Assembly (NCBI GenBank): GCA_049287025.1 | Contig: JBAQFA010000009.1 | Coordinates: forward strand, 24,802-88,801 | DNA from: Candidatus Magasanikiibacteriota bacterium | Lineage (GTDB): Bacteria > Patescibacteriota > Patescibacteriia > Magasanikbacterales > UBA922 | Direction: 5' to 3' | Length of the DNA: 64,000 nucleotides | Shown: piece after piece, positions 12,448 to 49,763 of the stretch | How the letters are laid out: each line of letters begins with the position of its first letter | Position numbering within the stretch: position 1 is the first letter of the stretch | The notes under the pieces: generated by a model | The model's database searches: none | What the model saw: the letters and a program-made list of their open reading frames with translations, nothing else | What the model was told of the DNA's origin: nothing | Position numbers and translations under genes: made by a program

Positions 12448-12471
12448 TTTAACACTTTTTAAATCGTAAAC

Positions 12472-13588: not shown

Positions 13589-13795
13589 TCAAATCTCTAG
13601 GCAGTCTTGACTGCCTACGACATCGTTCTTTCAACCTGTCCCGTTCGGGACACCAAAGTCAGGGAAGTGAGTATCACTCCACATCGGAGCGTACCTTCCC
13701 TGGCGCTCCATCAAAAGAACATCTCTAGTTAGGTGTTTTTTTGTTTAACATTGATTTTACAGATTTTAAAAAAGATTTTATTTTATAAAAATTAT

Positions 13796-14560
13796 TTATT
13801 TCAAACTGTTCCACAACATCTCCCAAACAAGACGTTGGTTATCAGCATTGGCTTGGTCTTCAATAATGACTAGGATCATACTCTCCCAAGAAACAGTCAT
13901 TACTCGATTGCCATAAATAACAGTGTGACTTTTGAATGATTTACCTTCGGGTAAAAATTTTACTTCACGTAATTCTTCTGTGGCACGTCTAGCTTCTAAA
14001 ATACCGGATTTGGATTTTTCCACAATTATTTTTGCTTTAACCCCTAATGAAATTCGTTCGTTGGTTAATTTTTTATACTCTTCTGGAAAAGTTGTTAATA
14101 GTTTTTCTGATGAACCATATACCAAATTTTCTTTTAGATTTACTTTGTGTCTAATCCTGTCTAGATAAGCATTCCATACATTTTTTCTACCCTCAAAATA
14201 TAATACTTTTGGTTTGTTGGCACCTTTGTTTTGTAAAGCCTCAAGTTCTGGTATTAGATCAGCAAAAAGTTGCTCTTTGTAACGAAGTGAATCCAAAAAT
14301 TTTTCTGGTTCCATGGCCACAAAATATCTTTTTCTGCCTTTGTTAACCACATTCATTAAGCCTTTAAGAATTAATTTTTCTATAATGTCGTATGTAGTTA
14401 CTCTATGTATGCCGGCTTTTTGAGCAATTGTCTGGACTGAAGCATGACCAAGCTCTAAGGTGGCTAAGTAAATTTCGGCCTCTTTGGCATCTAGACCAAA
14501 TTGTTGTAATTGATTAGGTAAAATCATAAAATGTTGTAGGAAAAGTTCTACATTTTTCAT
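13796..14560 (-). CDS. TrmB-family winged-helix transcriptional regulator (paralog 1)
   Basis: The N-terminal FGLDAKEAEIYLATLELGHASVQTIAQKAGIHRVTTYDIIEKLILKGL matches the TrmB wHTH pattern. The gene is low-GC. The start may be the internal Met at 14527. Confidence 0.8.
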   Translation of the reverse strand: MKNVELFLQHFMILPNQLQQFGLDAKEAEIYLATLELGHASVQTIAQKAGIHRVTTYDIIEKLILKGLMNVVNKGRKRYFVAMEPEKFLDSLRYKEQLFADLIPELEALQNKGANKPKVLYFEGRKNVWNAYLDRIRHKVNLKENLVYGSSEKLLTTFPEEYKKLTNERISLGVKAKIIVEKSKSGILEARRATEELREVKFLPEGKSFKSHTVIYGNRVMTVSWESMILVIIEDQANADNQRLVWEMLWNSLK

Positions 14561-28172: not shown

Positions 28173-28177
28173 TTTTG

Positions 28178-28248
28178 TGGACCTAGGCAGAATCGAACTG
28201 CCGTCTCAGCAATGCGAATGCTATATATTACCACTATACTATAGGCCC
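28178..28248 (-). tRNA. tRNA-Ala (CGC)
   Basis: The reverse complement reads gggcctatagtatagtggtaa...tagca-ttCGCat-tgctg...ggcagttcgattctgcc-taggtcc-a, with G3:U70. Confidence 0.85.
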
Positions 28249-28254
28249 GCTTAG

Positions 28255-28326
28255 TGCCCCCAGCATGAATTGAACACACATCTTGTCCTTAGGACGGACC
28301 TGTTCTATCCGTTGAACTATGGGGGC
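28255..28326 (-). tRNA. tRNA-Arg (CCT)
   Basis: The reverse complement reads gccccca-ta-gttcaacggatagaac-...gtcc-gtCCTaa-ggac...gtgttcaattcat(g)c-tgggggc-a. There is one mismatch at the top of the anticodon stem. Confidence 0.8.
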
Positions 28327-28373: not shown

Positions 28374-29123
28374 TTATTTTATCTCTGGGCAATGATCCCA
28401 CATAAATTTAAACCAGGTTTTATAGCTAGTGGCCAGTGGACGACTAATATTTACAAAAATGGTAATATCGTCACTAATCTTTGTTATTCCGGCGCCAGTA
28501 AAAGACACAACATGATCACCAAAAATGTCTACCATTGAAGGCGTAGAATATTCTTTAGGTAGGTATTTGTAAGGTTTACCTACGGCTTTTGGTACATGAG
28601 GAGCTTGTTTTAGTACTTCAAAATCAAATAAATGTTTATATTTAATACCTCGACGATCCGCATCAACTAAAAATTTATCCAAAAAGGTATTGAGTCTTGG
28701 GTCGAACCAGGCTCCCTTGGCGCCAATACAATAAACATCTTCTTTAGTAGATAATACATCACGAAGAAAATTTTTAAATCCTTCCAGACCTTTATATATG
28801 TAGGCAGCCTCTAAAACAGGATGTTTTTGGTATTCGTGCATCAAGTGTGGCATTTCTTTTTCTAGCCTAGTACGTTTTTCATCAACCAGTTCCATTAGCT
28901 TGGCTGGTTCCACTGGTTTAAATAAAGTGTCGCCATGCCCAATAACTTGAAACACTAAACCTTTTTCAATTAAGCGATTCATTGAGTCATAAATATTCCG
29001 GCGATGAATTTTACTTTTTTTTGAAATATTAGAAACCGTAGTTTGTTTTTCTTGTAAAAGTGTTTCGTAAATTTTGGCTTCGTTTATTGACAATCCTAGT
29101 TCTGTTAAAATTTGGCTATACAT
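28374..29123 (-). CDS. TrmB-family wHTH transcriptional regulator (paralog 2)
   Basis: The N-terminus is LGLSINEAKIYETLLQEKQTTVSNISKKSKIHRRNIYDSMNRLIEKGLV. The gene is low-GC and divergent from GC-rich cassette 2. Confidence 0.8.
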   Translation of the reverse strand: MYSQILTELGLSINEAKIYETLLQEKQTTVSNISKKSKIHRRNIYDSMNRLIEKGLVFQVIGHGDTLFKPVEPAKLMELVDEKRTRLEKEMPHLMHEYQKHPVLEAAYIYKGLEGFKNFLRDVLSTKEDVYCIGAKGAWFDPRLNTFLDKFLVDADRRGIKYKHLFDFEVLKQAPHVPKAVGKPYKYLPKEYSTPSMVDIFGDHVVSFTGAGITKISDDITIFVNISRPLATSYKTWFKFMWDHCPEIK

Positions 29124-29170
29124 AGCAAAAATATATTAAAGTGGTGTGAAGCCACACCACGTGGTGGTAT

Positions 29171-29198
29171 TTGCCACTCTTTATATATTATATATAAT
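29171..29198 (+). promoter_or_regulatory. Promoter of GC-rich cassette 2
   Basis: TTGCCA (29171-29176), a 16-nt spacer, then TATAAT (29193-29198). GCCTTGTT follows and is the shared start of the leader. Confidence 0.45.
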
Positions 29199-29296
29199 GC
29201 CTTGTTACTTTGCAAGCCGCTGCTGTGCATAAAAGCTAGATGGTGAGCGGGTAATAAGGGGTTCTTTGATAAAACAATTTGAGAAGCGAGGGACAA

Positions 29297-29479
29297 ATGG
29301 AAACTGGAGAAAGGCAAGATGAAGTTACTTGTTTGAAGAAAGAGTTGGAACATGACAAAGATGAGATATATTATTTGCGTTTGGCTATCCTTAATTTGAA
29401 TAGGAAAAAGGAGTATGTCAGAATGCAAAGGATGTTCCGTGGTGGAGAAGCTGTTCTCGACATGTGGGCGCGCTATTAA
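29297..29479 (+). CDS. Small coiled-coil protein, unknown function (cassette 2, first ORF)
   Basis: 60 aa. GAGG lies 5 nt upstream of the ATG at 29297. The sequence is charged with heptad-like spacing. I recognise no family. Confidence 0.4.
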   Translation: METGERQDEVTCLKKELEHDKDEIYYLRLAILNLNRKKEYVRMQRMFRGGEAVLDMWARY

Positions 29480-29515
29480 CACGGGAGAGGGCTGAAAAAG
29501 CCTAAGGAGGACCTC

Positions 29516-30103
29516 ATGCGTACAATGTTAGTCGCGTTGCTGTCGCTGGTGCTGTTTTCAAGTATTGCTCAGGCCGAAACCTACAACACCAGGTTGCTCC
29601 TGCACGGTCACAAGACCGTCGGTGAGGGATTCGGAGTCGCGGGTTGGGTGATTGCGCCCAACATCACAAGCGTACCGAACAAGTGGGTAACCCTCGTCGG
29701 CCCGTGCTACGATGGACAGGGGTGGGGTGTAGAATTGTTGGCAGGAGCGGTTGTTTCTGGTGGCGAGAGCAAGTTTCTTGTAGATGTCAGAATAACGTTC
29801 ACTCCAAAATTCTTCGGCATCCCCTTGAACACCTGGCACAACTTCCAGTGGATTCGAACCGGAGGCTCTGGCACGGGTTACTGGTATGGACAGGTTGACT
29901 GGGTGTTGCCACTCGGACTTGGACTTCTCGGTACAGAAACCGAGAACACGTTCAACGTGAGTGGCAATGACTGGTCAGTCGCGCCTCACGTCGTGATCTC
30001 TTTCGGTGATCACTTCGCGCTAGTGTTCGCTCCACAAGCTCATTTCAATGCACGTGGCTACACTGGCACGCAAGCGTGGGTTCGTACGGTCGTGAGTCAC
30101 TAG
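29516..30103 (+). CDS. GC-rich secreted protein, unknown function (cassette 2)
   Basis: AAGGAGG lies 5 nt upstream of the ATG. The Sec signal peptide is MRTMLVALLSLVLFSSIAQA/ET. The mature part is Gly/Trp/Val-rich with an alternating, beta-like pattern. The 60-nt line starting at 29581 contains 36 G+C. Confidence 0.7.
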   Translation: MRTMLVALLSLVLFSSIAQAETYNTRLLLHGHKTVGEGFGVAGWVIAPNITSVPNKWVTLVGPCYDGQGWGVELLAGAVVSGGESKFLVDVRITFTPKFFGIPLNTWHNFQWIRTGGSGTGYWYGQVDWVLPLGLGLLGTETENTFNVSGNDWSVAPHVVISFGDHFALVFAPQAHFNARGYTGTQAWVRTVVSH

Positions 30104-30177
30104 TCGTTCTTTTATAGGGGGGAGGACTTACTTGAGACTAGTCATCTCACGTGGACCGGCACGTAAAAATCCGGGAT

Positions 30178-30197
30178 TCTAGTTAGTACTAAGTAGA
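30178..30197. repeat. 20-bp near-perfect palindrome TCTAGTTAGTACTAAGTAGA (cassette 3' boundary)
   Basis: The half-sites tctagttag and ctaagtaga match at 8 of 9 positions. An identical copy lies at 31851-31870 and a half-site lies at 13725-13733. A hairpin-and-T-run terminator follows at 30202-30232. Confidence 0.7.
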
Positions 30198-30254
30198 TAT
30201 CAAAAAACCACGCCTCATCGGCGGGTTTTTTGTTTACTTTGGGTAATTTATGAT

Positions 30255-31049
30255 TTATTTTTTCTTTTTGGCAAGTTGAGAGAGTGGTACGGCCGTATTC
30301 CAAGCTAGTTCATATAGCGCTTTTAGAATTTTTACCAAAGATGTACTTTCTATCATTACACCAATTTTGTGTGGTTTATGAGTGACGAAGACAATTTTTG
30401 ATTCAAAAATATTAATTTCACCAAAAAAGTCCTCAATTCCTGGTAGTTGATTAGGTTTAAGCCATTTAATATGAGTATAAGTCATTGATCCTTTATAATT
30501 CGTCATCCAAGTTCTAGCTGTAGGTGTATCCAAAGCAATAATACGTTCATGAATTTTACGTTTACTGCGTTCACGATTATAGCCTTCACCCCAAGTTTTG
30601 AATTCCGGCCAACTCCAGCCTTCAAAATCGGCAATAGAAAGAATTTCGGTTTTTGAATCTAAGCTCTCCCAATAAATATTTTTTAAACCCTGGGTACCTT
30701 CTTGATATTTGATAACTGGCTTTTCGGCAAACTTATAAATCGAAAATAATTTTGGTAAAACTTTTTCTACATTTAATAATTTATCTTCCCATTGCTTTTT
30801 TTTGTTTTTAATATGTTGAACCAGACGCCCTGGATTTTCCGAAGTATAAATCATTTTCGATCCTTTGCCAGTCGCGCGATCTACCAAACCATACCAACCT
30901 AACTTTTCCAAAGCATAATAACCAAGCGTTCGGTTGATACCAGCTTTTTTGGTTATCTCGGCTACAGTAGCAGGACCAAGTTCGAGCAAGGCTAAATATA
31001 CTTTGCCTTCGGTTTCATCTAAACCTAATTGACTGATTAAATCTTTCAT
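30255..31049 (-). CDS. TrmB-family wHTH transcriptional regulator (paralog 3)
   Basis: LGLDETEGKVYLALLELGPATVAEITKKAGINRTLGYYALEKLGWYGLV. It is clearly homologous along its full length to the ORFs 31929..32732 and 48975..49763. Confidence 0.85.
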   Translation of the reverse strand: MKDLISQLGLDETEGKVYLALLELGPATVAEITKKAGINRTLGYYALEKLGWYGLVDRATGKGSKMIYTSENPGRLVQHIKNKKKQWEDKLLNVEKVLPKLFSIYKFAEKPVIKYQEGTQGLKNIYWESLDSKTEILSIADFEGWSWPEFKTWGEGYNRERSKRKIHERIIALDTPTARTWMTNYKGSMTYTHIKWLKPNQLPGIEDFFGEINIFESKIVFVTHKPHKIGVMIESTSLVKILKALYELAWNTAVPLSQLAKKKK

Positions 31050-31164
31050 GTTTTTATTCTACTATATATTTGGAAATGTGTCAAATCTATTTAACAGAAA
31101 ATTATTTATATAGCAAAATACTTTATAATTAGCCAAATATTAATAATTAACTAATAAAACAATA

Positions 31165-31193
31165 TTGACAGTTATTGTAAAATGTGGAATAAT
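31165..31193 (+). promoter_or_regulatory. Promoter of GC-rich cassette 3 with an operator-like palindrome just downstream
   Basis: TTGACA (31165-31170), a 17-nt spacer, then TGgAATAAT (-10 at 31188-31193). GTTCTAGAAT-gaaa-ATTCTGGAAC follows at 31198-31221 with a 9/10 inverted repeat. Confidence 0.55.
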
Positions 31194-31301
31194 AAGTAGT
31201 TCTAGAATGAAAATTCTGGAACCAAATTGATTGGGAGTGTCTGAACACTCTGTATATATGGTCTGGCGTTCTTTACACACGTGCTAGTTGGAGGGAACAT
31301 C

Positions 31302-31727
31302 ATGAAAAGGTGCATCAAGGCTCCGGGAATTAACGCTTTCAGTGGCGAGGGTGAAGTGGGGAAGTTAGAAGATGTCCCCGGAAAACAAGGTTGCCTTCCA
31401 TTTGATCCTAGTCCGGCCGTAGGGGGTTGGATGAAGGACGACAATTGTAAAGTGGAGGCACCACCAGAGGGGTGCACGCTCGAAGTGCCCGAAACGATCC
31501 TATGCCCCAATGGAAAAAACATCCCAGCTGGAAAGTACAAGGTGGGAAAACTGCCTGATGACAAGATTCTGCATCGCTATCATGATCACGTTCTGCCCCT
31601 CACCGATGAGAAGGGGGTCACCCGGCATTATTGCATTGAAAGTTCCGGTAGGCATGTCGACTGGTCGGGATGCGTCTGCATCTTGATTCGTGTGGAGACG
31701 CGCGAAGAGCGACTGCTGATTCAGTAG
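31302..31727 (+). CDS. GC-rich Cys-rich protein, unknown function (cassette 3)
   Basis: GGAGGG lies 6 nt upstream of the ATG at 31302, and the GTG at 31281 from the ORF track is rejected. 141 aa with 8 Cys. I recognise no family. Confidence 0.65.
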   Translation: MKRCIKAPGINAFSGEGEVGKLEDVPGKQGCLPFDPSPAVGGWMKDDNCKVEAPPEGCTLEVPETILCPNGKNIPAGKYKVGKLPDDKILHRYHDHVLPLTDEKGVTRHYCIESSGRHVDWSGCVCILIRVETREERLLIQ

Positions 31728-31792
31728 CCATAAATTAAGGGGGGCAAGACGTAGTCTGGATTCGTCAACCAGTCCACCTGCCGGAGAGGTAG

Positions 31793-31818
31793 GCGTAGGC
31801 CGGCGCGTGAGCTCGGCA
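31793..31818 (+). repeat. Conserved cassette 3' motif GCGTAGGCCGGCGCGTGAGCTCGGCA (REP-like)
   Basis: Near-identical 26-mers occur at 31793-31818, 33336-33361, 34176-34201, 34799-34824 and on the minus strand at 47677-47702. Each lies within 100 nt downstream of a GC-rich ORF stop. Confidence 0.85.
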
Positions 31819-31850
31819 CCGTGCGCCCGACACATTCAAAACGGGCAAAT

Positions 31851-31870
31851 TCTAGTTAGTACTAAGTAGA
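31851..31870. repeat. Second copy of palindrome TCTAGTTAGTACTAAGTAGA + terminator
   Basis: It is identical to 30178-30197. The hairpin aaaaaaccacgc...gcgcggtttttt follows. Confidence 0.7.
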
Positions 31871-31928
31871 TAACAAAAAACCACGCCCTATCAGCGCGGT
31901 TTTTTGTTTGTTTTGAATAATTTATAAA

Positions 31929-32732
31929 TTATTTTTTCTTTTTACTAGTTTTAGCAAGCGGTGTAGCTGTAATCCACGCCAGTTCAAAAATCGCTTTTAA
32001 AATATTAGATAAAGCCGTGCTTTCTATAATTATGCCAATAGGGATTGGTTTCTTGAATAAAGCCATCATTACTTTATTATCATAAATATTAATTTCACCA
32101 CCTAAATCTTTGATAGTTGGTACTTGTTCGGGTTTTATCCAGCGATAATTAATATATTTTTTTGATCCTTGATAATGTTTCATCCAATCTCTTCCTTCGG
32201 GTGTATCTAAAACCAAAACGCGTTCAGAAATTTTTCTTTTACTACGTTCGCGGGTATATTCTTTGCCCCATTTAAAAAGATTAAACTCTGGTGTATACCA
32301 AGCTTGCAAATCCAAGACTGATAAAATTTCTGATTTGGCTTCTAAAGTTTCCCAATAAATATTTTTGGCACCCTCAACACCTTCTTGAAATCTAACGCTG
32401 GGTTTTTCGGCCACGGTATAGAGTAAATAAAAATCTGGCAATTGTGATTCTAATTCTTTTTCTTTTCTTTCCCAAGTATTAATTTTTGATTTTACAAAAT
32501 GTTTTAAATTTTTGGGATCTTTGGCTACAAATTGAATGCGTTTCTTTTGTCCAGAAGAACGATTGACTAGGCCAAACCAACCAAGTTTTTCTAGGGCATG
32601 ATAACAAAGGGTGTGACCAATGCCAGCTTTGCGGGCAATGGCGCTGGCGCCAGAAGGTCCAAGTTGTAAAAGGGCAATATAGACTTTGGCTTCTGTTTCT
32701 TCAAAGCCAATGCTTTTAAGAATTTCTAACAT
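31929..32732 (-). CDS. TrmB-family wHTH transcriptional regulator (paralog 4)
   Basis: IGFEETEAKVYIALLQLGPSGASAIARKAGIGHTLCYHALEKLGWFGLV. The C-terminus LKAIFELAWITATPL...KKKK parallels that of paralog 3. Confidence 0.85.
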   Translation of the reverse strand: MLEILKSIGFEETEAKVYIALLQLGPSGASAIARKAGIGHTLCYHALEKLGWFGLVNRSSGQKKRIQFVAKDPKNLKHFVKSKINTWERKEKELESQLPDFYLLYTVAEKPSVRFQEGVEGAKNIYWETLEAKSEILSVLDLQAWYTPEFNLFKWGKEYTRERSKRKISERVLVLDTPEGRDWMKHYQGSKKYINYRWIKPEQVPTIKDLGGEINIYDNKVMMALFKKPIPIGIIIESTALSNILKAIFELAWITATPLAKTSKKKK

Positions 32733-32875
32733 AGAATTTTATTTTAGAATTTATTAGATATATTTATTATAACACAAAAATAAATTTATTTCAATATCAA
32801 ATTGAAAATAATTACTAGATTGTAAATTTTTATTTAAAATAAGCCAAAAATGGTTTATTTATTTTAAATTGAGTA

Positions 32876-32904
32876 TTGACATACTCCATAATCTAATGCA
32901 TAAT
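32876..32904 (+). promoter_or_regulatory. Promoter of GC-rich cassette 4
   Basis: TTGACA (32876-32881), a 17-nt spacer, then CATAAT (32899-32904). The architecture matches the minus-strand promoter at 48721-48749. Confidence 0.55.
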
Positions 32905-32906
32905 TA

Positions 32907-32946
32907 CTTGTTCTGACGATCGAGGATTGGCCTTGAGAGTTGGACG
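32907..32946 (+). promoter_or_regulatory. Conserved cassette 5' leader (CTTGTTCTGACGATCGAGGAT..CCTTGAGAGTTGGACG)
   Basis: It matches 48718-48679 (minus strand) at 37 of 40 positions and is closely similar to 48294-48258 (minus strand). It contains the hairpin TCGAGG-N5-CCT(C/T)GA. The C-to-T change keeps a G:U pair, and the loops differ. Confidence 0.7.
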
Positions 32947-32963
32947 CTAACTGGGAGGGCATC

Positions 32964-33311
32964 ATGGCCGAAGAGCACGAGGTACGGTGTGATAACTGCG
33001 CCCACCACCACGTAGGAAGCGGGGGTTGTTTCGGCAAAGTAGAGAGCAGGTTCCCCATGTACGATTTTCATAGAGGAGTAAAATACTGCATGTGGGGGGG
33101 GACCCCCAGCCGAATTGTGACCTTTTCTAGATTGAAGGGGTGCCCGCTGGGTGTGGAGTTTGTGCCACTCCGCTGGTGTGGTACCTGTGGCAACTTGGTC
33201 CAAACGGACCAAGGGTGTGCTCACCGGTTGGAGGGTTGCGAGGACCCCAGCTACAGGTGCTGGAAGATTCACCCCGACCTCAAGGAGGGTATGAGACAAC
33301 AGTACCTCTAG
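32964..33311 (+). CDS. GC-rich Cys/His-rich protein, unknown function (cassette 4, ORF a)
   Basis: GGGAGGG lies 4 nt upstream of the ATG at 32964. 115 aa with CDNCAHHH, CGTCG and other Cys pairs that suggest metal binding. I recognise no family. Confidence 0.65.
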   Translation: MAEEHEVRCDNCAHHHVGSGGCFGKVESRFPMYDFHRGVKYCMWGGTPSRIVTFSRLKGCPLGVEFVPLRWCGTCGNLVQTDQGCAHRLEGCEDPSYRCWKIHPDLKEGMRQQYL

Positions 33312-33335
33312 ACTACCCACCTATGGGTTAAACAG

Positions 33336-33447
33336 GCGTAGGCCGACGCGTGAGCTCGGCATTCCATTTTTGTCCAAAATATTATTTTTTGCATAAAGAT
33401 GGAGGCGCTCTTTAAAAACAAACAATCCGCACTGGTGGTGTTGGTTG
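33336..33447 (+). repeat. Inter-cassette junction repeat, copy A (~112 nt)
   Basis: The 3' motif is followed by the AT hairpin ccatttttgtcc...gcataaagatgg (33364-33402). CGCTCTTTAAAAACAAACAA and CACTGGTGGTGTTGGTTG follow that. It aligns along its full length with 34176-34285. Confidence 0.8.
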
Positions 33448-33480
33448 AAGAGATATAGTTCTGACTTAACGGAGGCTAGA

Positions 33481-34149
33481 ATGGGATACGACCCAAACCA
33501 AATGGCCCAAAGGTATTTGAGGGTCGACTGGGCCGACGTGAAGGGCTATGCCGCTTACGCGGTAGAGTCCACGTTCGGGGACCAAGTACCACCACCCATA
33601 AAAAGGAGACTCGAGGTATTGGACGGTATAAGGGACAAGGAAGGTCCCGAAGCCGCCTGTCTCGAGGCAGCAAGGATCGAATGTGAATGCCAAGTCGTTC
33701 AGGAGAAAAGAACTGAACGACGGCAGTGGAGAACGGGAGACGACCCATACAAATATGGGTCTTCGTTCTCTTCGAAGTTTGTCATCATAGATTATAATGG
33801 TGAAAAAAGATTCTACATCGCTCATAATTGGCATATGCAGGCCGTTTTCGTTTTCGCCAAAATTCTGGTGGATAGAAATAAAAAAGTCGATTTTCACGTT
33901 CTGGGTGGGGGGTGGTTCCGTGCTAATCATCCCCTAACTGTTGGCGGTTTTAGCGGTGATTTTAGCTCGTTCAAAATCTCTGACTTGAGTGAGGCGTTGG
34001 GTGGGCTTGAATTCACCGACAAAGATCCCGGTGATTGGCGCACGAATTCCATGCGTGCCACCCATATTGATTGGGCTTTTATCGAAAAAGCCCGTGACTC
34101 CTCTGAGAAATACAGGGAGGTATGGAAACGGATCTTTGAGGAGGAATAA
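33481..34149 (+). CDS. Unknown-function protein (cassette 4, ORF b)
   Basis: AGTTCTGAC (33457-33465) precedes GGAGG, which lies 5 nt upstream of the ATG at 33481. The TTG at 33445 from the ORF track is rejected. 222 aa. I recognise no family. Confidence 0.6.
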   Translation: MGYDPNQMAQRYLRVDWADVKGYAAYAVESTFGDQVPPPIKRRLEVLDGIRDKEGPEAACLEAARIECECQVVQEKRTERRQWRTGDDPYKYGSSFSSKFVIIDYNGEKRFYIAHNWHMQAVFVFAKILVDRNKKVDFHVLGGGWFRANHPLTVGGFSGDFSSFKISDLSEALGGLEFTDKDPGDWRTNSMRATHIDWAFIEKARDSSEKYREVWKRIFEEE

Positions 34150-34175
34150 TAGACGTAATCTGATTTCGTCAATCA

Positions 34176-34285
34176 GCGTAGGCCGGCGCGTTAGCTCGGC
34201 ATTCCATCTTTGTATAAAAATAATTTTATATAAAGATGGTTGTCGCTCTTTAAAAACAAACAACTAACACTGGTGGTGTTGGTTG
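34176..34285 (+). repeat. Inter-cassette junction repeat, copy B (~110 nt)
   Basis: See copy A. The hairpin ccatctttgtat...atataaagatgg lies at 34204-34239. Confidence 0.8.
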
Positions 34286-34339
34286 GTGATATATAAAAAG
34301 GACTGGTGGCGGACACAACCCTTGGAGAAGGAGTTGAAA

Positions 34340-34759
34340 ATGAGTACTGTCAAGATACTCATCATCGACGACGGTGATGAGAAAGTCGATCGACTGAAAG
34401 GTTATGATCGACTTGGCCACCTCCATGGTGTGGAGGTGGTACGCCGATGGAATTTTAATTCGGCTCTTAAGGAAGGGCCGTACGCGTTTAATGATTTGGA
34501 GCAAACAAAGTTTGACGTGATTATTTTGGACTTTACACTGCCAATGGACAGATTCGGTCATGAGATCTTGGATAAAATTAGACACAGTCCCAGGTTTATT
34601 ATTAACGAAAGAACGGTAGTAATTGGCATTTCCACAGAGTGGAAACGTCTATTACAATATGATTTCGGTTTGAATCTTGCGATCTACAAGGAGGAAACGA
34701 TGGCTGACGAACTGGAAACAGCCATCAAGTCCTTCGTCGCCACTGGCAAAGTCAAATAA
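34340..34759 (+). CDS. Stand-alone CheY-like receiver (REC) domain protein (cassette 4, ORF c)
   Basis: AAGGAG lies 6 nt upstream of the ATG at 34340. KILIIDDG, the putative phospho-acceptor in DVIILDFTLP, and VVIGIST fit a receiver fold. There is no output domain, and no kinase lies in the window. Confidence 0.65.
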   Translation: MSTVKILIIDDGDEKVDRLKGYDRLGHLHGVEVVRRWNFNSALKEGPYAFNDLEQTKFDVIILDFTLPMDRFGHEILDKIRHSPRFIINERTVVIGISTEWKRLLQYDFGLNLAIYKEETMADELETAIKSFVATGKVK

Positions 34760-34798
34760 TTTGGGGAGGGAAAGACGAAGCTTGGGATTTGTCACCCA

Positions 34799-34824
34799 AC
34801 GTAGGCCGGCGCGTGAGCTCGGCA
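34799..34824 (+). repeat. Cassette 3' motif copy (ACGTAGGCCGGCGCGTGAGCTCGGCA), end of the array
   Basis: It matches the 26-mer consensus at 25 of 26 positions. It is preceded by AGACGAAGCTTGGGATTTGTCACCCA, which resembles the sequence preceding the copies at 31793 and 34176. Confidence 0.8.
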
Positions 34825-34959
34825 ATCTCCTTTTTCGCGAAAGAAAGAGCAAAAAAGATCCAGTAAAACTGGGCTTTTTTGTTTGTGGATAAAATAGTTG
34901 ACAATGTGTCTAATATCGTGTATAGTATATAATATATTATAAACTATATACTATAAACT

Positions 34960-35460: not shown

Positions 35461-35484
35461 TTTAACATAATTAATTGTTATTTT

Positions 35485-47476: not shown

Positions 47477-47676
47477 TTTTTGGTTTGATGACTGTTTACG
47501 TACTAATTACGAAACTTACGAATCTACGAAACTACCATTGTTAAATTGCCACATTGTTAAATTGTTAATGATACACACAGAAGAAAGTCTGTTAATGTAA
47601 ATTTTACGGAAATTAAACAAAAAATCCCTTCCTAAATGGTTGGGATTTTTTTGTCTCGTTTGTCGACAAGTCGAGA

Positions 47677-47702
47677 TGCCGAGCTCACGCGCCGGCCTAC
47701 GC
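47677..47702 (-). repeat. Cassette 3' motif copy (minus strand)
   Basis: The reverse complement GCGTAGGCCGGCGCGTGAGCTCGGCA is an exact match to the copy at 31793. On the minus strand it is followed by the terminator hairpin atccc...gggat and a T-run (about 47615-47652). Confidence 0.85.
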
Positions 47703-47784
47703 CTATTTAATCCATAGATGGAGTGCCACTTTTGAATGTGTGTGGCGCACAGTGAAGAGGTGTGGAACAAGCCGGCCATGTTTA

Positions 47785-48228
47785 TCAGATTTTGAATTCC
47801 TGATAAATCCTGGCCAGCACCTTTGCAGCCGTATGAACTCGTTCCAGGATGTTCGTGAGTGCGTCGGAGAATTCGTGCCACTCCCAGACAGTCTCTTCCC
47901 CGTCACTTTTCAGGTTGTAGCTACCCATCATGGCGGCAAACACTTGGTAGGCGTTAACGCTTCGGCCTGTTTTTTCCCCACGCAGTATACTGCCGTGTAT
48001 GTGTTGCGCGTAGTTTTCAAGCCACTCAACCAAATCTTCGTTCCCCTCTATTTTCTGTAGAAGCTGGTCTGCGATTTGATCAACGCTTTCCTTACAACAC
48101 TCTTCATCTGCGTCAAGTCGTAAGTACAGGCAAACGATGGCGATCAGATTGGGTGGAAGGTCATAGCATCCCTCAGGATAAGTCCTGAGCATAGGCTCGC
48201 CTTCTCCCCAGCTAGAAAGGTAGAGCAT
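47785..48228 (-). CDS. Unknown-function acidic helical protein (cassette 5, ORF b)
   Basis: AGGAGG lies 6 nt upstream of the ATG at 48228. 147 aa. I recognise no family. Confidence 0.6.
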   Translation of the reverse strand: MLYLSSWGEGEPMLRTYPEGCYDLPPNLIAIVCLYLRLDADEECCKESVDQIADQLLQKIEGNEDLVEWLENYAQHIHGSILRGEKTGRSVNAYQVFAAMMGSYNLKSDGEETVWEWHEFSDALTNILERVHTAAKVLARIYQEFKI

Positions 48229-48257
48229 CACTCACCTCCTTGTTTACAAAGAACGTT

Positions 48258-48294
48258 GTCCAACTTTCGAGGTACATCCTCGATTGTCAGAACT
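48258..48294 (-). promoter_or_regulatory. Conserved cassette 5' leader copy (AGTTCTGACAATCGAGGATGTACCTCGAAAGTTGGACA)
   Basis: This is the third copy of the leader, at an internal (intercistronic) position. The hairpin is TCGAGG-atgta-CCTCGA. Confidence 0.7.
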
Positions 48295-48385
48295 TCCTCC
48301 ATCTTTATACAAAAAATATTTTGGACAAAGATGGAAGGCCCGGCGCTTTGTTGACGCGCGGCCGGGCGAAGCGTGGCGGAGTGTG
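48295..48385 (-). repeat. Inter-cassette junction, short version
   Basis: On the minus strand, the GC hairpin gcccggc...gccgggc occupies the place of the 3' motif. The AT hairpin ccatctttgtccaaaatattttttgtataaagatgg (48334-48299) follows and is nearly identical to 33364-33402. It then runs straight into AGTTCTGAC. Confidence 0.7.
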
Positions 48386-48652
48386 TTACTCCTTGGGTGT
48401 GGAGAGGTGGAGAAAGTGGCGGATTTTTTGCCAGAAGATTTTGTTGGCTTCTATTCCGGCTTCCTTTTTCGCTCGAGCCTCCCTGATGCCCTTGTTCCTT
48501 TCGAGGCCACACTGGGGGCAGTAGGACATGTGAGGTAAGAGTTCATTTCCACACAGGCATTGTGGAAGAGCAACTCTCTTTACACCACAATATTGACAGA
48601 ACTCTGAGTATCCCACGTGACTACACATCGGGCACAGCCTACTCTCAAGCAT
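48386..48652 (-). CDS. Double zinc-ribbon protein (cassette 5, ORF a)
   Basis: GGAGG lies 5 nt upstream of the ATG at 48652, and the TTG at 48685 from the ORF track would fall inside the conserved leader. CPMCSH...CQYCG and CLCG...CPQCG form two Cys4 ribbons. The C-terminal tail is basic. Confidence 0.65.
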   Translation of the reverse strand: MLESRLCPMCSHVGYSEFCQYCGVKRVALPQCLCGNELLPHMSYCPQCGLERNKGIREARAKKEAGIEANKIFWQKIRHFLHLSTPKE

Positions 48653-48678
48653 TTCTTCCTCCAGAGTGTAAGGAATTT

Positions 48679-48718
48679 CGTCCAACTTTCGAGGCCCATC
48701 CTCGATCGTCAGAACAAG
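48679..48718 (-). promoter_or_regulatory. Conserved cassette 5' leader copy
   Basis: The reverse complement is CTTGTTCTGACGATCGAGGATGGGCCTCGAAAGTTGGACG. Confidence 0.7.
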
Positions 48719-48720
48719 GA

Positions 48721-48749
48721 ATTGTAGATTATTTATGAGTAATTGTCAA
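48721..48749 (-). promoter_or_regulatory. Promoter of GC-rich cassette 5
   Basis: The reverse complement reads TTGACA (48749-48744), a 17-nt spacer, then TACAAT (48726-48721). TAAGTAGTTC at 48753-48762 also occurs at 31193-31202. Confidence 0.55.
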
Positions 48750-48974
48750 GATTAAGTAGTTCAAAAATGTATATAAAATAGGCTAAAATAAGCTAAATAA
48801 TTATTAACACATATAATTTTGTCGGGATGATTTGACATATATTGTTATATATGTTATATTAGTTATGGTTTAAAACATTATTTTGTTTGCTAAAGTGGTT
48901 AATTGTAGGAAAGATTCACCCTTCGGGTATCTTCGACCTCTCCGCCAGTCGGCGGATCGGAATGAACTAAAAAA

Positions 48975-49763
48975 ATGGAAAAAAATAATTTAGAAAAATT
49001 AATAGATTTGGGTCTACAAGAAAATGAAGCCAAAATATATTTGGCTTTGTTGGAATTGGGAAAAGGCAATGTGACCGAAATTAGTCGGCGCGCAGGATTG
49101 AACCGGACGACGGGTTATGATATTTTGGAACGTCTTGGTTTACATGGTATGGTGAACCGCGCCAGAGTGGGTAGTAAAAAAATTATTTATGTGGCCGAAC
49201 CGCCATCACATTTGCGTCAGTACTTGGAAGACAAAAAACGCGCCATGGAAAGACGGATGGAAGAATTAAATGATTTGTTGCCAGATTTGCAATCACTTTA
49301 TAAAACTGATATTAAACCAGTTATAAAATTTGCCGAAGGGAAAAGTGAAATGCAAAAATTGTATTTGAATGTTTTGGATGCGAAGAGTGAAGTTTATTCA
49401 ATTCTTAATTTAAAAGGTTATGCCGAAGTTTTTGATGAACTGGGTGCTTATCAATCCAAAGAACGACATAAAAAAGGCATAAAAGAAAAAGTTTTGGCTA
49501 TAAAAAATGATACCGCTCTGTGGTGGTATAATAAAACTTATAAAAATAAAACTGCCAAGGATAAAAAGTTAACCGAATATCGCTGGCTAGAAGATGCGGA
49601 AAAGTATTCTACCGCCGGAGAAGTAAATATTTTTGATGATAAAGTAATTGGTGTATTATCCAAACCAAGTGAAAATGTGGCATTTGAAATTCAATCACAG
49701 ACATTTGCGGATTTTTTGAAATTAGTTTTTGAAATGGCGTGGAAGAATAGTGAACAAAAATAA
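48975..49763 (+). CDS. TrmB-family wHTH transcriptional regulator (paralog 5)
   Basis: LGLQENEAKIYLALLELGKGNVTEISRRAGLNRTTGYDILERLGLHGMV. It is homologous to paralogs 3 and 4 and divergent from cassette 5. Confidence 0.85.
   Translation: MEKNNLEKLIDLGLQENEAKIYLALLELGKGNVTEISRRAGLNRTTGYDILERLGLHGMVNRARVGSKKIIYVAEPPSHLRQYLEDKKRAMERRMEELNDLLPDLQSLYKTDIKPVIKFAEGKSEMQKLYLNVLDAKSEVYSILNLKGYAEVFDELGAYQSKERHKKGIKEKVLAIKNDTALWWYNKTYKNKTAKDKKLTEYRWLEDAEKYSTAGEVNIFDDKVIGVLSKPSENVAFEIQSQTFADFLKLVFEMAWKNSEQK

What the first reader, a model, noticed from the sequence alone, without database searches (positions are those of the whole stretch)
28374..34900. Tandem array of [TrmB-like regulator <-> GC-rich ORFan cassette] modules with conserved non-coding ends
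There are three consecutive modules: 28374-30240, 30255-31920 and 31929-34890. Each has a low-GC TrmB-family wHTH gene on the minus strand. Divergently from it, an AT-rich sigma70-type promoter drives one to three ORFs of strikingly foreign composition. Direct counts show this: 36 G+C in the 60-nt line starting at 29581, against 16 G+C in the line starting at 30361 inside the adjacent regulator gene. The payload ORFs are unrelated to each other and I recognise no family for most of them. Despite that, their untranslated ends are shared between modules. The shared elements are the 5' (C)TTGTT / AGTTCTGAC leader, the 3' 26-mer GCGTAGGCCGGCGCGTGAGCTCGGCA, a ~110-nt junction repeat, and the palindrome TCTAGTTAGTACTAAGTAGA followed by a terminator. 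Conserved flanks around unrelated payloads, each wired to a paralogous regulator, amount to cassette logic. Yet no integrase, transposase or reverse transcriptase lies in or next to the array. Two more copies exist in this window, at 12.5 kb and 47.6-49.8 kb. I know of no described system with this architecture.
Basis: partly seen in the sequence, partly recalled or inferred. Interest (0 to 1): 0.92.

Follow-up and report, generated by a model that had tools for sequence, protein, structure and literature searches.

The report
GC-rich swappable gene modules with TrmB regulators
In an AT-rich, ultra-small (CPR, Magasanikbacteria-type) bacterium, a set of TrmB-type regulator genes each sits back-to-back with a self-contained, GC-rich gene unit; the unit's non-coding ends are conserved but its protein content is swapped between related genomes, and I found no published description of such an arrangement.

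Summary
Three tandem modules (28374-34890), a fourth at 47.6-49.8 kb and a looser fifth at 12.5-14.6 kb each pair a low-GC TrmB-family gene with a GC-rich transcription unit. Every 300-nt window with GC >= 0.47 lies in these five units, apart from one tRNA cluster.

Syntenic loci from at least five independent assemblies show the same architecture, which excludes chimeric assembly. They also show cassette behaviour:
- one to three modules lie between the same tRNA genes and rmuC;
- module order differs between genomes;
- four unrelated payloads occupy the TrmB3-type slot, three of them between the same 5' leader and 3' element.

The GC-richness is not recent transfer. Four-fold sites are saturated between lineages, yet payload GC3 stays at 0.5-0.8 beside regulators at about 0.25-0.35.

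The 3' 26-mer has the format of a GTAG-tagged REP hairpin with a GNRA loop, but it occurs only at payload 3' ends. Leaders carry 5' stem-loops, with compensatory changes. The regulators model as TrmBL2-like. Payload P1 models as a KdgM-like 12-stranded beta-barrel, and P3b and P5 have no homologues.

No integrase, transposase, reverse transcriptase or attC site was found. The most likely reading is regulator-gated accessory-gene expression modules exchanged by homologous recombination through conserved untranslated ends. Function is unknown.

The parts
28177..28326 (-). tRNA-Ala(CGC) and tRNA-Arg(CCU), immediately downstream of TrmB1 on the same strand. They form the conserved left anchor of the array. 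tRNA-Ala(GGC) lies at 27585-27659 (+).
   Evidence: ARAGORN and Rfam. The same tRNAs follow the terminal TrmB gene in L010, L006, L014, L013, L007 and L015.
28374..29123 (-). TrmB1, a TrmB-family wHTH regulator (249 aa, GC 0.35)
   Evidence: PF01978, E = 6e-16. It is 90% identical to the L014 orthologue, with dN/dS 0.07.
29124..29515 (+). Module 1 divergent promoter region and long leader. It contains the palindrome GTGGTGTGAAGCCACACCAC (29141-29160), the payload promoter (29171-29198) and a small ORF (29297-29479) that is absent from L014.
   Evidence: the L014 intergenic region is.
29516..30103 (+). P1: a secreted protein of 195 aa that models as a 12-stranded beta-barrel (GC 0.54, GC3 0.62)
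30104..30240 (+). Module 1 3' UTR: hairpins, the palindrome TCTAGTTAGTACTAAGTAGA (30178-30197) and an intrinsic terminator
30255..31049 (-). TrmB2 regulator (264 aa)
   Evidence: PF01978, E = 2e-13. It is 96% identical to L010 TrmBa, with dN/dS 0.02.
31165..31301 (+). Module 2 payload promoter (TTGACA-17-AATAAT) and a structured leader of about 100 nt with two stem-loops
   Evidence: From the -10 box to the ATG (about 130 nt) it is 95% identical to L012, with a compensatory U-A to C-G change in hairpin 2, while the CDS is about 73% identical.
31302..31727 (+). P2: a Cys-containing protein of 141 aa (GC 0.53)
   Evidence: Homologues occur in L010 and L012. dN/dS is 0.26. No Pfam, PHROG or PADLOC hit.
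31728..31915 (+). Module 2 3' UTR mosaic. In order: small hairpin; the GTAG-tagged 26-mer (31793-31818); hairpin B with loop ACACAUUCAAAA (31826-31845); the palindrome (31851-31870); and a terminator (31875-31906).
   Evidence: The same 3' UTR is attached to a different payload in L012_a.
31929..32732 (-). TrmB3 regulator (267 aa), modelled as TrmBL2-like
   Evidence: PF01978, E = 4e-15. It has 73 homologues; the named ones are CPR lineages apart from one 'Fimivivens' record, and most are unnamed. The model has pLDDT 90 and Foldseek matches TrmBL2 (5bpd) at E = 2e-13.
32733..32963 (+). Module 3 control region and leader. In order: candidate operator TTTCAAT-N5-ATTGAAA (32789-32807), overlapping the TrmB3 -35 box; the invariant AATAAGCC box (32838-32848); the payload promoter (32876-32904); and the 5' leader hairpin UCUGAC-GA-UCGAGG-loop-CCUUGA-GA-GUUGGA (32912-32944).
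   Evidence: Footprint across six genomes.
32964..33311 (+). P3a: a Cys-rich protein of 115 aa, probably zinc-binding (GC3 0.68)
   Evidence: It is 48% identical to L010 Pb and weakly similar to the L009 86-aa protein. Unrelated ORFs replace it in L006, L012 and L013.
33312..33480 (+). Junction 1. In order: the 26-mer (33336-33361), an AT-rich perfect hairpin (33364-33402), a 5' hairpin (33428-33443), and GTTCTGAC followed by a Shine-Dalgarno site.
33481..34149 (+). P3b: an ORFan of 222 aa, bounded by the direct junction repeats
   Evidence: An exhaustive HMMER search of 1.84 billion representatives returned only the protein itself. L009, which has P3a-like and P3c-like genes, lacks it.
34150..34339 (+). 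Junction 2. In order: the 26-mer (34176-34201), the AT-rich hairpin (34204-34239), and the 5' hairpin CAACAC-UGGUG-GUGUUG. It is 87-89% identical to junction 1.
   Evidence: The same junction occurs in L012_a.
34340..34759 (+). P3c: a stand-alone receiver-like (REC) protein of 139 aa
   Evidence: Weak Response_reg match, E = 3e-4, below the Pfam cut-off. A homologue occurs in L009 at 31% identity.
34760..34890 (+). Module 3 3' end. In order: the 26-mer (34799-34824), the hairpin CTCCTTTTTCGCGAAAGAAAGAG (34827-34849) and a terminator (34859-34880).
   Evidence: The same trailer occurs in L010/L001.
47620..48974 (-). Module 4 payload unit, listed 5' to 3' on the minus strand:
- promoter at about 48755-48727;
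- leader hairpin, 48713-48681;
- P4a, a double zinc-ribbon protein of 88 aa, 48652-48386;
- junction with the AT hairpin (48334-48299) and a second leader copy (48291-48259);
- P4b, 147 aa, 48228-47785;
- hairpin B, 47746-47725;
- the 26-mer, 47702-47677;
- terminator.
48975..49763 (+). TrmB4 regulator (262 aa), divergent from module 4
   Evidence: PF01978, E = 3e-16. It is 37% identical to TrmB2 and TrmB3.
12460..14560 (.). A loose fifth unit. It is a GC-rich unit (57% over the transcript, up to 67% in 300-nt windows) with its own promoter and terminator, carrying ORF 12617/12975-13588 (+). TrmB5 (13796-14560, -) is convergent with it and divergent from an ABC-transporter operon (14640-17120). 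The unit lacks the shared leader and the 26-mer.
   Evidence: P5 has no homologue in 5.8 billion proteins.

Best explanation
The modules are regulator-gated expression units for accessory proteins, in a CPR (Magasanikbacteria-type) chromosome.

How each module is built. A TrmB-family regulator of the TrmBL2 type has a winged helix, a long helix and a PLD-like C-domain. It is transcribed divergently from an extremely AT-rich control region (16-19% GC). That region holds a near-consensus sigma70 promoter for a self-contained unit. The unit runs: 5' stem-loop at or near the start site, strong Shine-Dalgarno site, one to three small ORFs, 3' hairpins, intrinsic terminator.

What the regulator does (inferred). 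It most likely autoregulates and gates the unit through palindromic or invariant boxes in the intergenic region (TTTCAAT-N5-ATTGAAA; AATAAGCC). It may also act through the palindromic leader.

What the end elements do (inferred). They are the 5' hairpin, the GTAG-tagged GNRA hairpin (REP-like), hairpin B and the AT-rich intercistronic hairpin. As RNA they most likely protect and process the transcripts. As DNA they are short conserved tracts, through which RecA-mediated homologous recombination replaces, inserts or deletes payloads. The incoming DNA would come from other modules or other strains. No dedicated recombinase is needed.

The GC-richness. The whole transcribed span is held at about 50-60% GC by a persistent, unit-specific force. 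That force is selection on the mRNA (structure, stability, codon choice) or GC-biased gene conversion.

Shown: the anatomy, conservation of the ends, compensatory changes, payload replacement, purifying selection on payloads, and long-term maintenance of GC.

Inferred: regulation by the adjacent TrmB paralogue, the RNA-level roles of the hairpins, recombination as the exchange mechanism, and the cause of the GC bias.

Payload functions are mixed: a KdgM-like beta-barrel, a REC-like protein, zinc-ribbon proteins and ORFans. They probably serve cell-surface or host-interaction roles and signalling.
For: Association with composition.
- Five of five TrmB paralogues in the window lie next to a GC-rich unit, and no GC-rich unit lies anywhere else.
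- The divergent layout, with small Pfam-less ORFs opposite the TrmB gene, recurs in every TrmB3-homologue locus examined. The TrmB1-P1 pair is kept even at 36% P1 identity and in a different genomic context.

Regulator.
- The model (pLDDT 90) matches TrmBL2 over its full length.
- Archaeal TrmBL2 sites are AT-rich (PMC11840125), like the 16-19% GC intergenic regions here.

Control region. The operator-like palindrome and the AATAAGCC box are largely conserved across the TrmB3-type intergenic regions (exact palindrome in W and L012, one change in L006; TAAG-CA core invariant in all six), although synonymous sites are saturated.

Leaders.
- The module 3 leader (about 36 nt) is nearly unchanged between the window, L010 and L006 (3 variable positions), and differs at 3 further positions (2 of them in the stem, both G-U compatible) in L012.
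- The module 2 leader region (about 130 nt, from the -10 box to the ATG) is 95% identical to L012's, against about 73% for its CDS. It carries a compensatory U-A to C-G change.
- Changes in the module 3 and L012 leader stems are G-U compatible.

3' elements.
- The one variable pair in the 26-mer stem shows G-U, A-U and G-C, and never a mismatch.
- The stem of hairpin B covaries (CCGG/CCGG, CCCG/CGGG, GCCAC/GUGGC) around a conserved loop.

Payload replacement.
- TrmB3 is 90% identical between the window and L006, with identical flanks, yet the payloads have no similarity (E = 0.15).
- Four unrelated payload families occupy the TrmB3-type slot.
- The module 2 3' UTR is attached to another payload in L012_a.
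- Arrays hold 1-3 modules and module order differs.
- P3b lies between direct junction repeats.

Payloads are coding. dN/dS is 0.17-0.34, and by direct reading a GGAGG-like Shine-Dalgarno site precedes all 8.

GC is maintained. Four-fold sites are 26-42% identical between lineages, and whether a site is G/C in one lineage is independent of the other. Payload GC4 is 0.5-0.77 against 0.24-0.42 for the regulators.

RecA is encoded in the window.
Against: - No experiment or expression data links any TrmB paralogue to its neighbouring unit.
- Modules 3 and 4 share a leader although their regulators are only 37% identical. The leader is therefore not a paralogue-specific operator.
- TrmB5 is convergent with its GC-rich neighbour and more plausibly controls the ABC transporter.
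- The conserved tracts are short (26-130 nt) for efficient homologous recombination.
- Some homology breakpoints coincide with the transcription start (window 31213). A transcript-based or site-specific mechanism would also predict this.
- Folding z-scores of single leaders are modest, -1.2 to -3.6.
- Covariation rests on a few events.
- The cause of the GC bias is untested.
- The L012 contig has frameshifts, so protein comparisons that use it are weak.
Confidence: 0.45

Rival explanations
1. The units are non-autonomous mobile cassettes. The GTAG-tagged hairpin, and perhaps the 5' hairpin, would be recognition sites for an enzyme encoded elsewhere in the genome: a RAYT or IS200/IS605-type Y1 (HUH) transposase, or another site-specific recombinase. 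That enzyme would excise and insert the units as single-stranded DNA.
For: - The 26-mer has the GTAG-REP format: an unpaired GTAG, a GC-rich bulged stem of 7 bp and a short loop flanked by GC. G-T pairing occurs in the stem, and the element lies downstream of ORFs.
- Units are delimited by hairpins at both ends.
- Payloads change between constant ends.
- P3b behaves as an insertable unit with an 840-nt period.
Against: - No Y1_Tnp, integrase or RT domain in the window ORFs tested, nor in the gene lists of about 10 related loci.
- The 5' and 3' hairpins are unrelated in sequence, unlike the left and right ends of IS200/IS605 elements.
- All 12 copies are single, in gene orientation, and lie only at payload 3' ends. 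None is dispersed and none forms a REP dimer.
- The element is missing from modules 1 and 5 and from more distant relatives that still have the architecture.
- The stem variation is G-U compatible on the sense strand, which fits an RNA role.
Confidence: 0.15
2. These are ordinary paralogous regulator-target pairs made by tandem duplication, and nothing is exchanged. Payload differences would reflect very fast divergence plus gene gain and loss. The shared untranslated ends would be conserved only because they are regulatory.
For: - TrmB2 and TrmB3 are 49% identical, and their 3' parts plus the upstream terminators still align as DNA (D1 and D2).
- TrmB1-P1 is a stable, vertically inherited pair.
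- The P2, P3a and P3c families are shared between genomes at their expected slots.
- Payloads evolve fast (dN 0.2-0.8).
Against: - TrmB3 is 90% identical and its flanks are identical between the window and L006, while the CDS is unalignable and a different length. This cannot be divergence in place.
- Four unrelated families occupy one slot.
- The same 3' UTR sits on different payloads and behind different promoters.
- The order of the TrmB2 and TrmB3 modules is inverted between the window and L010.
- The homology break lies exactly at the start of the transcribed unit.
Confidence: 0.2
3. The exchange goes through RNA. The unit of exchange is the transcript, so a reverse transcriptase copies the mRNA and the cDNA recombines back through the shared leader and trailer.
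For: - The boundaries of the GC-rich, exchangeable segment coincide with the predicted transcription start and terminator.
- The conserved ends look like RNA structures.
Against: - No RT in the window or in any related locus. No poly-A or primer-like features.
- Polycistronic units with internal junction repeats are explained just as well by DNA recombination.
- Nothing explains a GC bias arising from reverse transcription.
Confidence: 0.05
4. The GC-rich blocks are contaminant or chimeric assembly, or freshly acquired foreign DNA from a GC-rich donor.
For: The composition jumps sharply, from 16-35% to 50-67% GC within tens of bases. P1 has the fold of a protein family typical of diderm bacteria.
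Against: - The same AT/GC junctions, leaders and 3' elements occur in independent assemblies: the NCBI MAG, UBA11710, several JGI metagenomes, and ENA and Logan assemblies.
- Synonymous sites are saturated between lineages while GC stays high.
- P5 and P3b have no homologue anywhere, and all P1 homologues lie in the same lineage.
- There is no DNA match to phage or plasmid collections and none of the 26-mer in viral contigs.
Confidence: 0.02

Closest known systems
TrmB family regulators, especially archaeal TrmBL2 (PDB 5bpd/5box)
   Same: - N-terminal PF01978 winged helix.
- Length of about 260 aa.
- Predicted full-length architecture of winged helix, long helix and PLD-like C-domain.
- Divergent or adjacent placement next to the regulated genes, as for archaeal TrmB and its ABC-transporter operon (the archaeal case is from my own knowledge).
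- AT-rich binding regions, as reported for TrmBL2.
   Different: - These are bacterial (CPR) proteins.
- There are five paralogues within 64 kb, each tied to its own GC-rich unit.
- No ligand domain has been shown.
- TrmBL2 is a genome-wide chromatin protein rather than a local partner of a cassette.
GTAG-tagged REP elements / BIMEs (Di Nocera et al. 2013, PMC3733652)
   Same: - An unpaired GTAG head, a GC-rich stem and a short loop flanked by GC (the format of family GTAG-3).
- G-T pairs in the stem.
- Position downstream of ORFs.
- Mosaic combination with other short hairpins in the 3' regions.
   Different: - Only about 1 copy per payload ORF, always single and in gene orientation.
- Confined to the cassette units rather than dispersed.
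- No RAYT nearby.
- The host is a 36% GC CPR bacterium, outside the 8 phyla reported.
- Limited to the closest relatives.
Integron gene cassettes and CALINs (clusters of attC sites lacking an integrase)
   Same: Unrelated, often ORFan, small genes of atypical composition, arranged in tandem. Each is followed by a conserved structured element, and cassette content varies between relatives.
   Different: - No IntI and no attC core pairs (0 in the modules).
- Each module has its own promoter, leader and regulator, whereas integron cassettes are promoterless.
- Exchange breakpoints lie at the transcript ends.
Phage 'morons' and acr-aca type loci (from my own knowledge)
   Same: A promoter- and terminator-bounded unit whose composition differs from that of its neighbours. 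Variable small ORFans are linked to a conserved helix-turn-helix regulator.
   Different: - The context is core chromosome, not prophage: dnaA, dnaN, recA, polA and ftsK are in the window.
- No phage similarity.
- The composition is maintained over long divergence.
- The untranslated ends are shared.
KdgM/NanC small outer-membrane porins (for payload P1 only)
   Same: - Signal peptide.
- About 170 mature residues.
- A C-terminal aromatic or Leu residue in the family alignment.
   Different: - No sequence-level match to any Pfam family and about 11% identity to the structures.
- The model confidence is moderate (pLDDT 71).
- From my own knowledge, CPR bacteria are not known to have an outer membrane. 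The target membrane is therefore unknown.

Membership tests
TrmB family transcriptional regulators | N-terminal TrmB-type winged helix-turn-helix (PF01978) scoring above the curated cut-off | tested here: met
   All five paralogues score 50-59 bits against a cut-off of 25.6.
TrmB family transcriptional regulators | Overall fold of winged helix, dimerising helix and C-terminal PLD-like/TrmB-type domain | tested here: met
   The AlphaFold model has pLDDT 90. Foldseek matches TrmBL2 over its full length at E = 2e-13. The C-domain matches Nuc (PLD family) and the TrmB sugar domain 2f5t.
TrmB family transcriptional regulators | Sequence-specific or filament-type DNA binding that controls the neighbouring genes, with or without a sugar ligand | not testable with these tools
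   There are only candidate sites: TTTCAAT-N5-ATTGAAA and the AATAAGCC box, largely conserved across six genomes.
GTAG-tagged REP elements | An unpaired terminal GTAG next to a GC-rich stem (5-13 bp) with a short loop | tested here: met
   The element reads GTAG-GCCGG-C-GC-GUGA-GC-UCGGC in 12 copies. The format is as described.
GTAG-tagged REP elements | Extragenic position, mostly downstream of coding regions; G-T pairs that suggest an RNA role | tested here: met
   All copies lie 20-70 nt after payload stop codons. The variable pair is G-U, A-U or G-C.
GTAG-tagged REP elements | High copy number dispersed over the genome, commonly as head-to-head or tail-to-tail dimers | tested here: not met
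   There are 5 copies in 64 kb, all single, in gene orientation and only inside the modules. The related loci show the same pattern. The whole genome was not available.
GTAG-tagged REP elements | An associated RAYT (Y1 transposase) gene | tested here: inconclusive
   None was found in the window ORFs tested or in the related loci (and the gene lists). The rest of the genome was not seen.
Integron / CALIN | IntI tyrosine recombinase with attI | tested here: not met
   No integrase domain in the window or in the related loci (same calls as above).
Integron / CALIN | attC sites: an imperfect palindrome bounded by RYYYAAC ... GTTRRRY | tested here: not met
   No core pair lies inside the modules; there are 6 in the whole window.
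Diversity-generating retroelement | A reverse transcriptase plus a template/variable repeat pair | tested here: not met
   No RT domain. No payload-internal repeat pair appears in the repeat scan.
Prophage moron / phage or plasmid island | Location within phage or plasmid DNA, or similarity to it | tested here: not met
   No meaningful PHROG hit. No blastn hit in the phage or plasmid collections. The 26-mer motif is absent from viral contigs. The neighbours are core genes.
KdgM/NanC porin family (payload P1) | 12-stranded transmembrane beta-barrel with a signal peptide | tested here: met
KdgM/NanC porin family (payload P1) | Sequence membership (a Pfam KdgM-type profile) and residence in an outer membrane | tested here: not met
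   No Pfam family matches at E <= 0.1. The envelope type of the organism cannot be tested here.

The most novel reading that the evidence does not exclude
A CPR lineage would have a distinct class of 'hard-cased' transcription units.

In this reading, whole transcripts are kept GC-rich and capped by 5' and 3' hairpins. Their mRNAs would then escape AU-directed RNases, or be read only under particular conditions. The tRNAs for G/C-ending codons, tRNA-Arg(CCU) and tRNA-Ala(CGC/GGC), always sit directly behind the terminal TrmB gene and could support that translation.

The same conserved ends would act as universal adaptors. Any payload could then be swapped between modules and strains without a recombinase. 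That would be a recombinase-free analogue of an integron, with one TrmBL2-like gatekeeper per slot.
Probability: 0.15. Interest if true: 0.88.

Novelty: new variant of a known kind. Interest (0 to 1): 0.74.

Why it matters
- CPR/Patescibacteria have tiny genomes and few regulators. Their accessory genes, and how they interact with hosts, are poorly understood. Here a large share of the local regulator repertoire is devoted to small, fast-evolving and often unique proteins held in exchangeable units. This points to a dedicated system for variable surface, effector or signalling functions.
- Single transcription units hold GC3 at 0.5-0.8 in a 36% GC genome across saturating divergence. This gives a clean natural test of what sets local base composition in bacteria: selection on mRNA or GC-biased conversion.
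- If payloads really are exchanged through conserved untranslated ends without a recombinase, that would be a new and simple route to cassette-like gene turnover.
- A predicted KdgM-like beta-barrel in a lineage thought to lack an outer membrane is a separate lead on how these epibionts might contact or permeabilise host envelopes.

Tried and rejected
- Known RNA families. Rfam at gathering score over the whole window, and at the E-value threshold over the array, gave only tRNAs and weak terminator-like hits.
- Protein families. Pfam, PHROGs and PADLOC on all payloads gave nothing, apart from a weak REC-like match and a zinc-ribbon match.
- Integron. No attC cores and no integrase.
- DGR, retron or RT-based system. 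No RT and no template/variable repeat pair.
- Prophage or plasmid origin. No DNA or PHROG similarity, and no hit to the 26-mer motif in viral contigs.
- Recent transfer from a GC-rich donor. P5 and P3b have no homologue in 5.8 billion and 1.84 billion proteins. Synonymous sites are saturated while GC is kept.
- Chimeric assembly. The same junctions occur in at least five independent assemblies.
- A dedicated AGG/tRNA-Arg(CCU) link. AGG is 13 times more frequent in window payloads. However, this matches the general shift from A to G at third positions plus higher Arg use, and the P1 homologues in L014 and L015 contain no AGG. I kept it only as a side note.
- Motif scans of the genome and metagenome collections returned only one locus each. 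The 26-mer is therefore confined to a narrow clade. Wider comparison had to go through TrmB and P1 protein homologues.
- A covariance model of the 3' element was not built. A fuzzy search allowing up to 5 errors had already found no further copies in the 11 sources it scanned (it also missed the known L006 copy, so it is not fully sensitive).

Full report
**What the window is.** The window is 36% GC and carries core genes: dnaA, dnaN, recA, polA, ftsK, an H+-pyrophosphatase and a class A PBP. Exact-sequence look-ups name the source as a 'Candidatus Magasanikiibacteriota' MAG, a CPR/Patescibacteria lineage, with a contig of 148.6 kb.

**1. Checking the observation.**
- Genes. Three TrmB-family genes lie on the minus strand, at 28374-29123, 30255-31049 and 31929-32732 (PF01978, E = 1e-13 to 1e-16). 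Each is divergent from one to three plus-strand ORFs: P1 29516-30103, P2 31302-31727, P3a 32964-33311, P3b 33481-34149 and P3c 34340-34759.
- Other modules. A fourth module lies inverted at 47.6-49.8 kb, with TrmB4 at 48975-49763, P4a at 48386-48652 and P4b at 47785-48228.
- The fifth unit. At 12.5-14.6 kb a very GC-rich unit lies next to TrmB5 (13796-14560). The two are convergent, and TrmB5 is divergent from an ABC-transporter operon. The shared leader and 26-mer are absent, so this is only a loose relative.
- Composition. The hand counts (36 and 16 G+C) are exact. Payload GC3 is 0.49-0.68 against 0.25-0.29 for the regulators. All 300-nt windows with GC >= 0.47 lie in the five units, except one over a tRNA cluster.
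- Shared elements. The 26-mer occurs five times with at most 1 mismatch, where none is expected. The palindrome occurs twice. The leader and junction repeats are as described.
- Promoters. Near-consensus sigma70 promoters precede each unit, and divergent promoters serve the TrmB genes.

**2. Related genomes.** Scanning public collections for the 26-mer gave one genome locus (Ca. Magasanikbacteria UBA11710, L001) and one metagenome contig (L002). Viral contigs gave none. Homologues of TrmB3 (73 proteins; most are unnamed, and the named ones are CPR lineages apart from one 'Fimivivens' record) and of P1 (12 proteins) gave further loci, L003 to L015.

The array lies between tRNA-Arg(CCU)/tRNA-Ala(CGC) and a wHTH-DUF4325 gene plus rmuC. 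Its content differs from genome to genome:

| Genome | Array content |
|---|---|
| Window | TrmB1-P1; TrmB2-P2; TrmB3-P3a/b/c |
| L010 (UBA11710 type) | TrmBc-Pc1/Pc2; TrmB3 type-Pb; TrmB2 type-Pa1/Pa2 (module order inverted) |
| L006/L002 | one module only, TrmB3 type-Px |
| L014 | one module, TrmB1-P1 homologue |
| L012 | three modules |
| L009 | TrmB3 type, then a P3a-like and a P3c-like gene, no P3b |
| L013, L007 | one module each |

The same AT/GC junctions therefore occur in NCBI, JGI, ENA and Logan assemblies. This rules out a chimeric assembly.

**3. Cassette behaviour.**
- The clearest case. TrmB3 is 90% identical between the window and L006. The promoter region aligns, and the 36-nt leader and the roughly 45-nt 3' element are nearly identical. 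The coding sequence between them does not align, and the proteins are unrelated (E = 0.15).
- One slot, several payloads. L012_b has the same leader and a 26-mer variant around yet another ORF, and L013 carries a fourth. The window, L010 and L009 share the P3a family.
- Portable 3' ends. The 110-nt 3' UTR of window module 2 is attached to a different payload and promoter in L012_a.
- Break at the transcript start. TrmB2 is 96% identical between the window and L010. Nucleotide homology stops at about window 31213, the start of the transcribed unit, and resumes at the 26-mer. L010 has a different leader, an extra ORF and a P2 homologue only 33-44% identical (33% in the BLASTP local alignment; 44% in the global alignment).
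- An insertable unit. P3b is bounded by direct junction repeats 840 nt apart and is absent from L009.
- No enzyme. No integrase, transposase or RT domain was found in the window ORFs tested, and none appears in the gene list of any related locus. No attC core pairs lie in the modules.

**4. The GC-richness is maintained, not imported.**
- Synonymous divergence between these genomes is at or near saturation for all genes (dS about 1 or more).
- At four-fold sites, orthologous payloads are only 26-42% identical. Whether a site is G/C in one lineage is independent of the other. Even so, payload GC4 is 0.5-0.77 while adjacent regulators and rmuC sit at 0.24-0.42.
- P1 homologues have GC3 of 0.81 (L014) and 0.56 (L015) in genomes of 36% GC.
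- P5 and P3b have no homologue in 5.8 billion and 1.84 billion proteins. All P1 homologues are in the same lineage.
- Payload dN/dS is 0.17-0.34, so they are real genes under purifying selection. All eight have GGAGG-type ribosome-binding sites (read directly).
- The GC-rich domain spans the whole predicted transcript, 3' UTRs included at 52-54% GC. The promoter regions are 16-19% GC for modules 2 and 3, and 29-35% for modules 4 and 1.
- Conclusion: a persistent, unit-specific force acts. It is either selection on the RNA or GC-biased conversion. I could not tell which.

**5. The non-coding ends.**
- The 26-mer folds as GTAG + GCCGG-C-GC-GUGA-GC-UCGGC, a bulged 7-bp stem with a GNRA loop. Its one variable pair shows G-U, A-U and G-C, and never a mismatch.
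- This is the format of GTAG-tagged REP elements, family GTAG-3: an unpaired GTAG, a GC-rich stem, a short loop flanked by GC, G-T pairs, and a position downstream of ORFs (PMC3733652). From memory, it even shares GTAGGCCGG...CGGCA with the E. coli REP.
- Unlike REPs, all 12 copies found are single, in gene orientation and only at payload 3' ends.
- A second 3' hairpin has a covarying stem (CCGG/CCGG, CCCG/CGGG, GCCAC/GUGGC) around a conserved loop, ACACAUUCAAAA.
- Leaders start with a stem-loop. Modules 3 and 4 share UCUGAC-NA-UCGAGG-N5-CCUCGA-NA-GUUGGA, and both observed stem changes are G-U compatible.
- The module 2 leader region (about 130 nt, from the -10 box to the ATG) is 95% identical between the window and L012, against about 73% for the CDS. 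It has one compensatory U-A to C-G change.
- Between cistrons lies a perfect AT-rich hairpin of 15-17 bp, plausibly a processing site.
- No Rfam family matches.

**6. The proteins.**
- Regulator. The TrmB3 model (54-sequence alignment, pLDDT 90) matches the archaeal chromatin protein TrmBL2 over its full length (E = 2e-13). Its C-domain is PLD-like and also resembles the TrmB sugar domain. TrmBL2 sites in Thermococcus are AT-rich.
- Control region. Footprinting of six TrmB3-type intergenic regions leaves three conserved blocks: a TTTCAAT-N5-ATTGAAA palindrome over the TrmB3 -35 box, an AATAAGCC box upstream of the payload promoter, and the TTGACA box.
- Other payloads. P3c is weakly REC-like and P4a is a double zinc ribbon. 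P2, P3a and Px are Cys-rich.

**7. Interpretation.** The best-supported reading (confidence 0.45) is a family of regulator-gated expression modules for accessory proteins. Their conserved transcript-end elements would serve RNA stability and processing. They would also act as homology arms for RecA-dependent payload exchange. I rank the rivals as follows:
- ordinary duplicated regulator-target pairs with fast divergence (0.2), contradicted by the slot replacements;
- non-autonomous cassettes moved by a RAYT-like or other recombinase encoded elsewhere (0.15), which fits the REP-like format although no enzyme was seen;
- RNA-mediated exchange (0.05);
- artefact or recent transfer (0.02).

**8. 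Novelty.** Each ingredient has a precedent: TrmB regulators, REP-like hairpins, variable islands next to tRNA genes, moron-like units. I found no description of the combination in the paper library. The combination is one TrmBL2-like paralogue per slot, transcript-wide GC maintenance in an AT-rich genome, and payload exchange between conserved untranslated ends without a recombinase. I rate it a new variant of known kinds, with a real chance that it is something more distinct. Function remains unknown, and all mechanistic steps beyond the anatomy are inference.

Noticed in passing
window 27585-27659, 28177-28326; L010 12910-13087 and 14039-14113; L006 3915-5483; L014 3822-5972; L015 5473-5911; L007 6933-7155; L013 4478-4549: tRNA-Arg(CCU) and tRNA-Ala(CGC), usually with tRNA-Ala(GGC), lie directly downstream of the terminal TrmB gene on the same strand in all seven loci where ARAGORN found tRNA genes (none were found in L009 and L012). 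This includes L015, whose wider context differs. In the window, the AGG codon occurs at 25.6 per 1000 in payloads against 2.0 per 1000 in background genes. That fits the general GC shift, and the P1 homologues in L014 and L015 contain no AGG.
   Followed up: partly
window 29516-30103 (P1) and homologues P0076-P0086: This is a secreted protein that models as a 12-stranded KdgM/NanC-like beta-barrel, and its relatives have an OMP-like C-terminal Phe or Leu. It sits in a CPR lineage that is generally thought to lack an outer membrane. It could insert into a host membrane or into an unrecognised envelope layer.
   Followed up: partly
window 13796-17120: TrmB5 is divergent from an ABC-transporter operon: a substrate-binding protein at 14640-15671 (identified only by its appearance, not tested), a permease and an ATPase. 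This resembles the classical pairing of archaeal TrmB with a sugar ABC transporter. It suggests this paralogue has a conventional target rather than the neighbouring GC-rich ORF.
   Followed up: partly
window 34960-36095; L010 6211-7248; L014 8984-10093: The right border of the array is a conserved wHTH + DUF4325 (STAS-like) gene next to rmuC. It is one fused 166-aa ORF in the window, but separate genes of 252 and 89 aa in L010 and L014. Only the window also has a Gp49 (HigB-like) toxin and HTH antitoxin pair, inserted at 35485-36095.
   Followed up: no
L006 4960-5130 (minus strand as displayed): A GC-rich stretch of about 170 nt lies between tRNA genes, with no ORF and no Rfam match at gathering score. 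It may be an unannotated structured RNA.
   Followed up: partly
L014 3923-4558: Another GC-rich ORF (211 aa, GC 0.55, GC3 0.59) lies between the tRNA genes in a 36% GC genome, with no TrmB gene directly beside it. It may be a further payload-type unit.
   Followed up: no
window 49909-53469: This is a 1186-aa protein with repeated lamin-tail-domain (LTD) modules. The repeats appear at the DNA level as families D3, D6 and D8. The gene lies directly downstream of TrmB4.
   Followed up: no
L012 1564-2369 and 4926-5709: The TrmB genes on this contig are split by frameshifts, and the P2 homologue has several indels relative to the window. This is either a decaying array or an error-prone assembly, so protein-level comparisons that use L012 are unreliable.
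   Followed up: partly
L004/L005 (GIY-YIG at 9358-9609 and 6640-6891), L010 13775-14035: A small GIY-YIG protein (83-86 aa) lies near the TrmB and tRNA region in several relatives. The window ORFs I scanned showed no counterpart.
   Followed up: no
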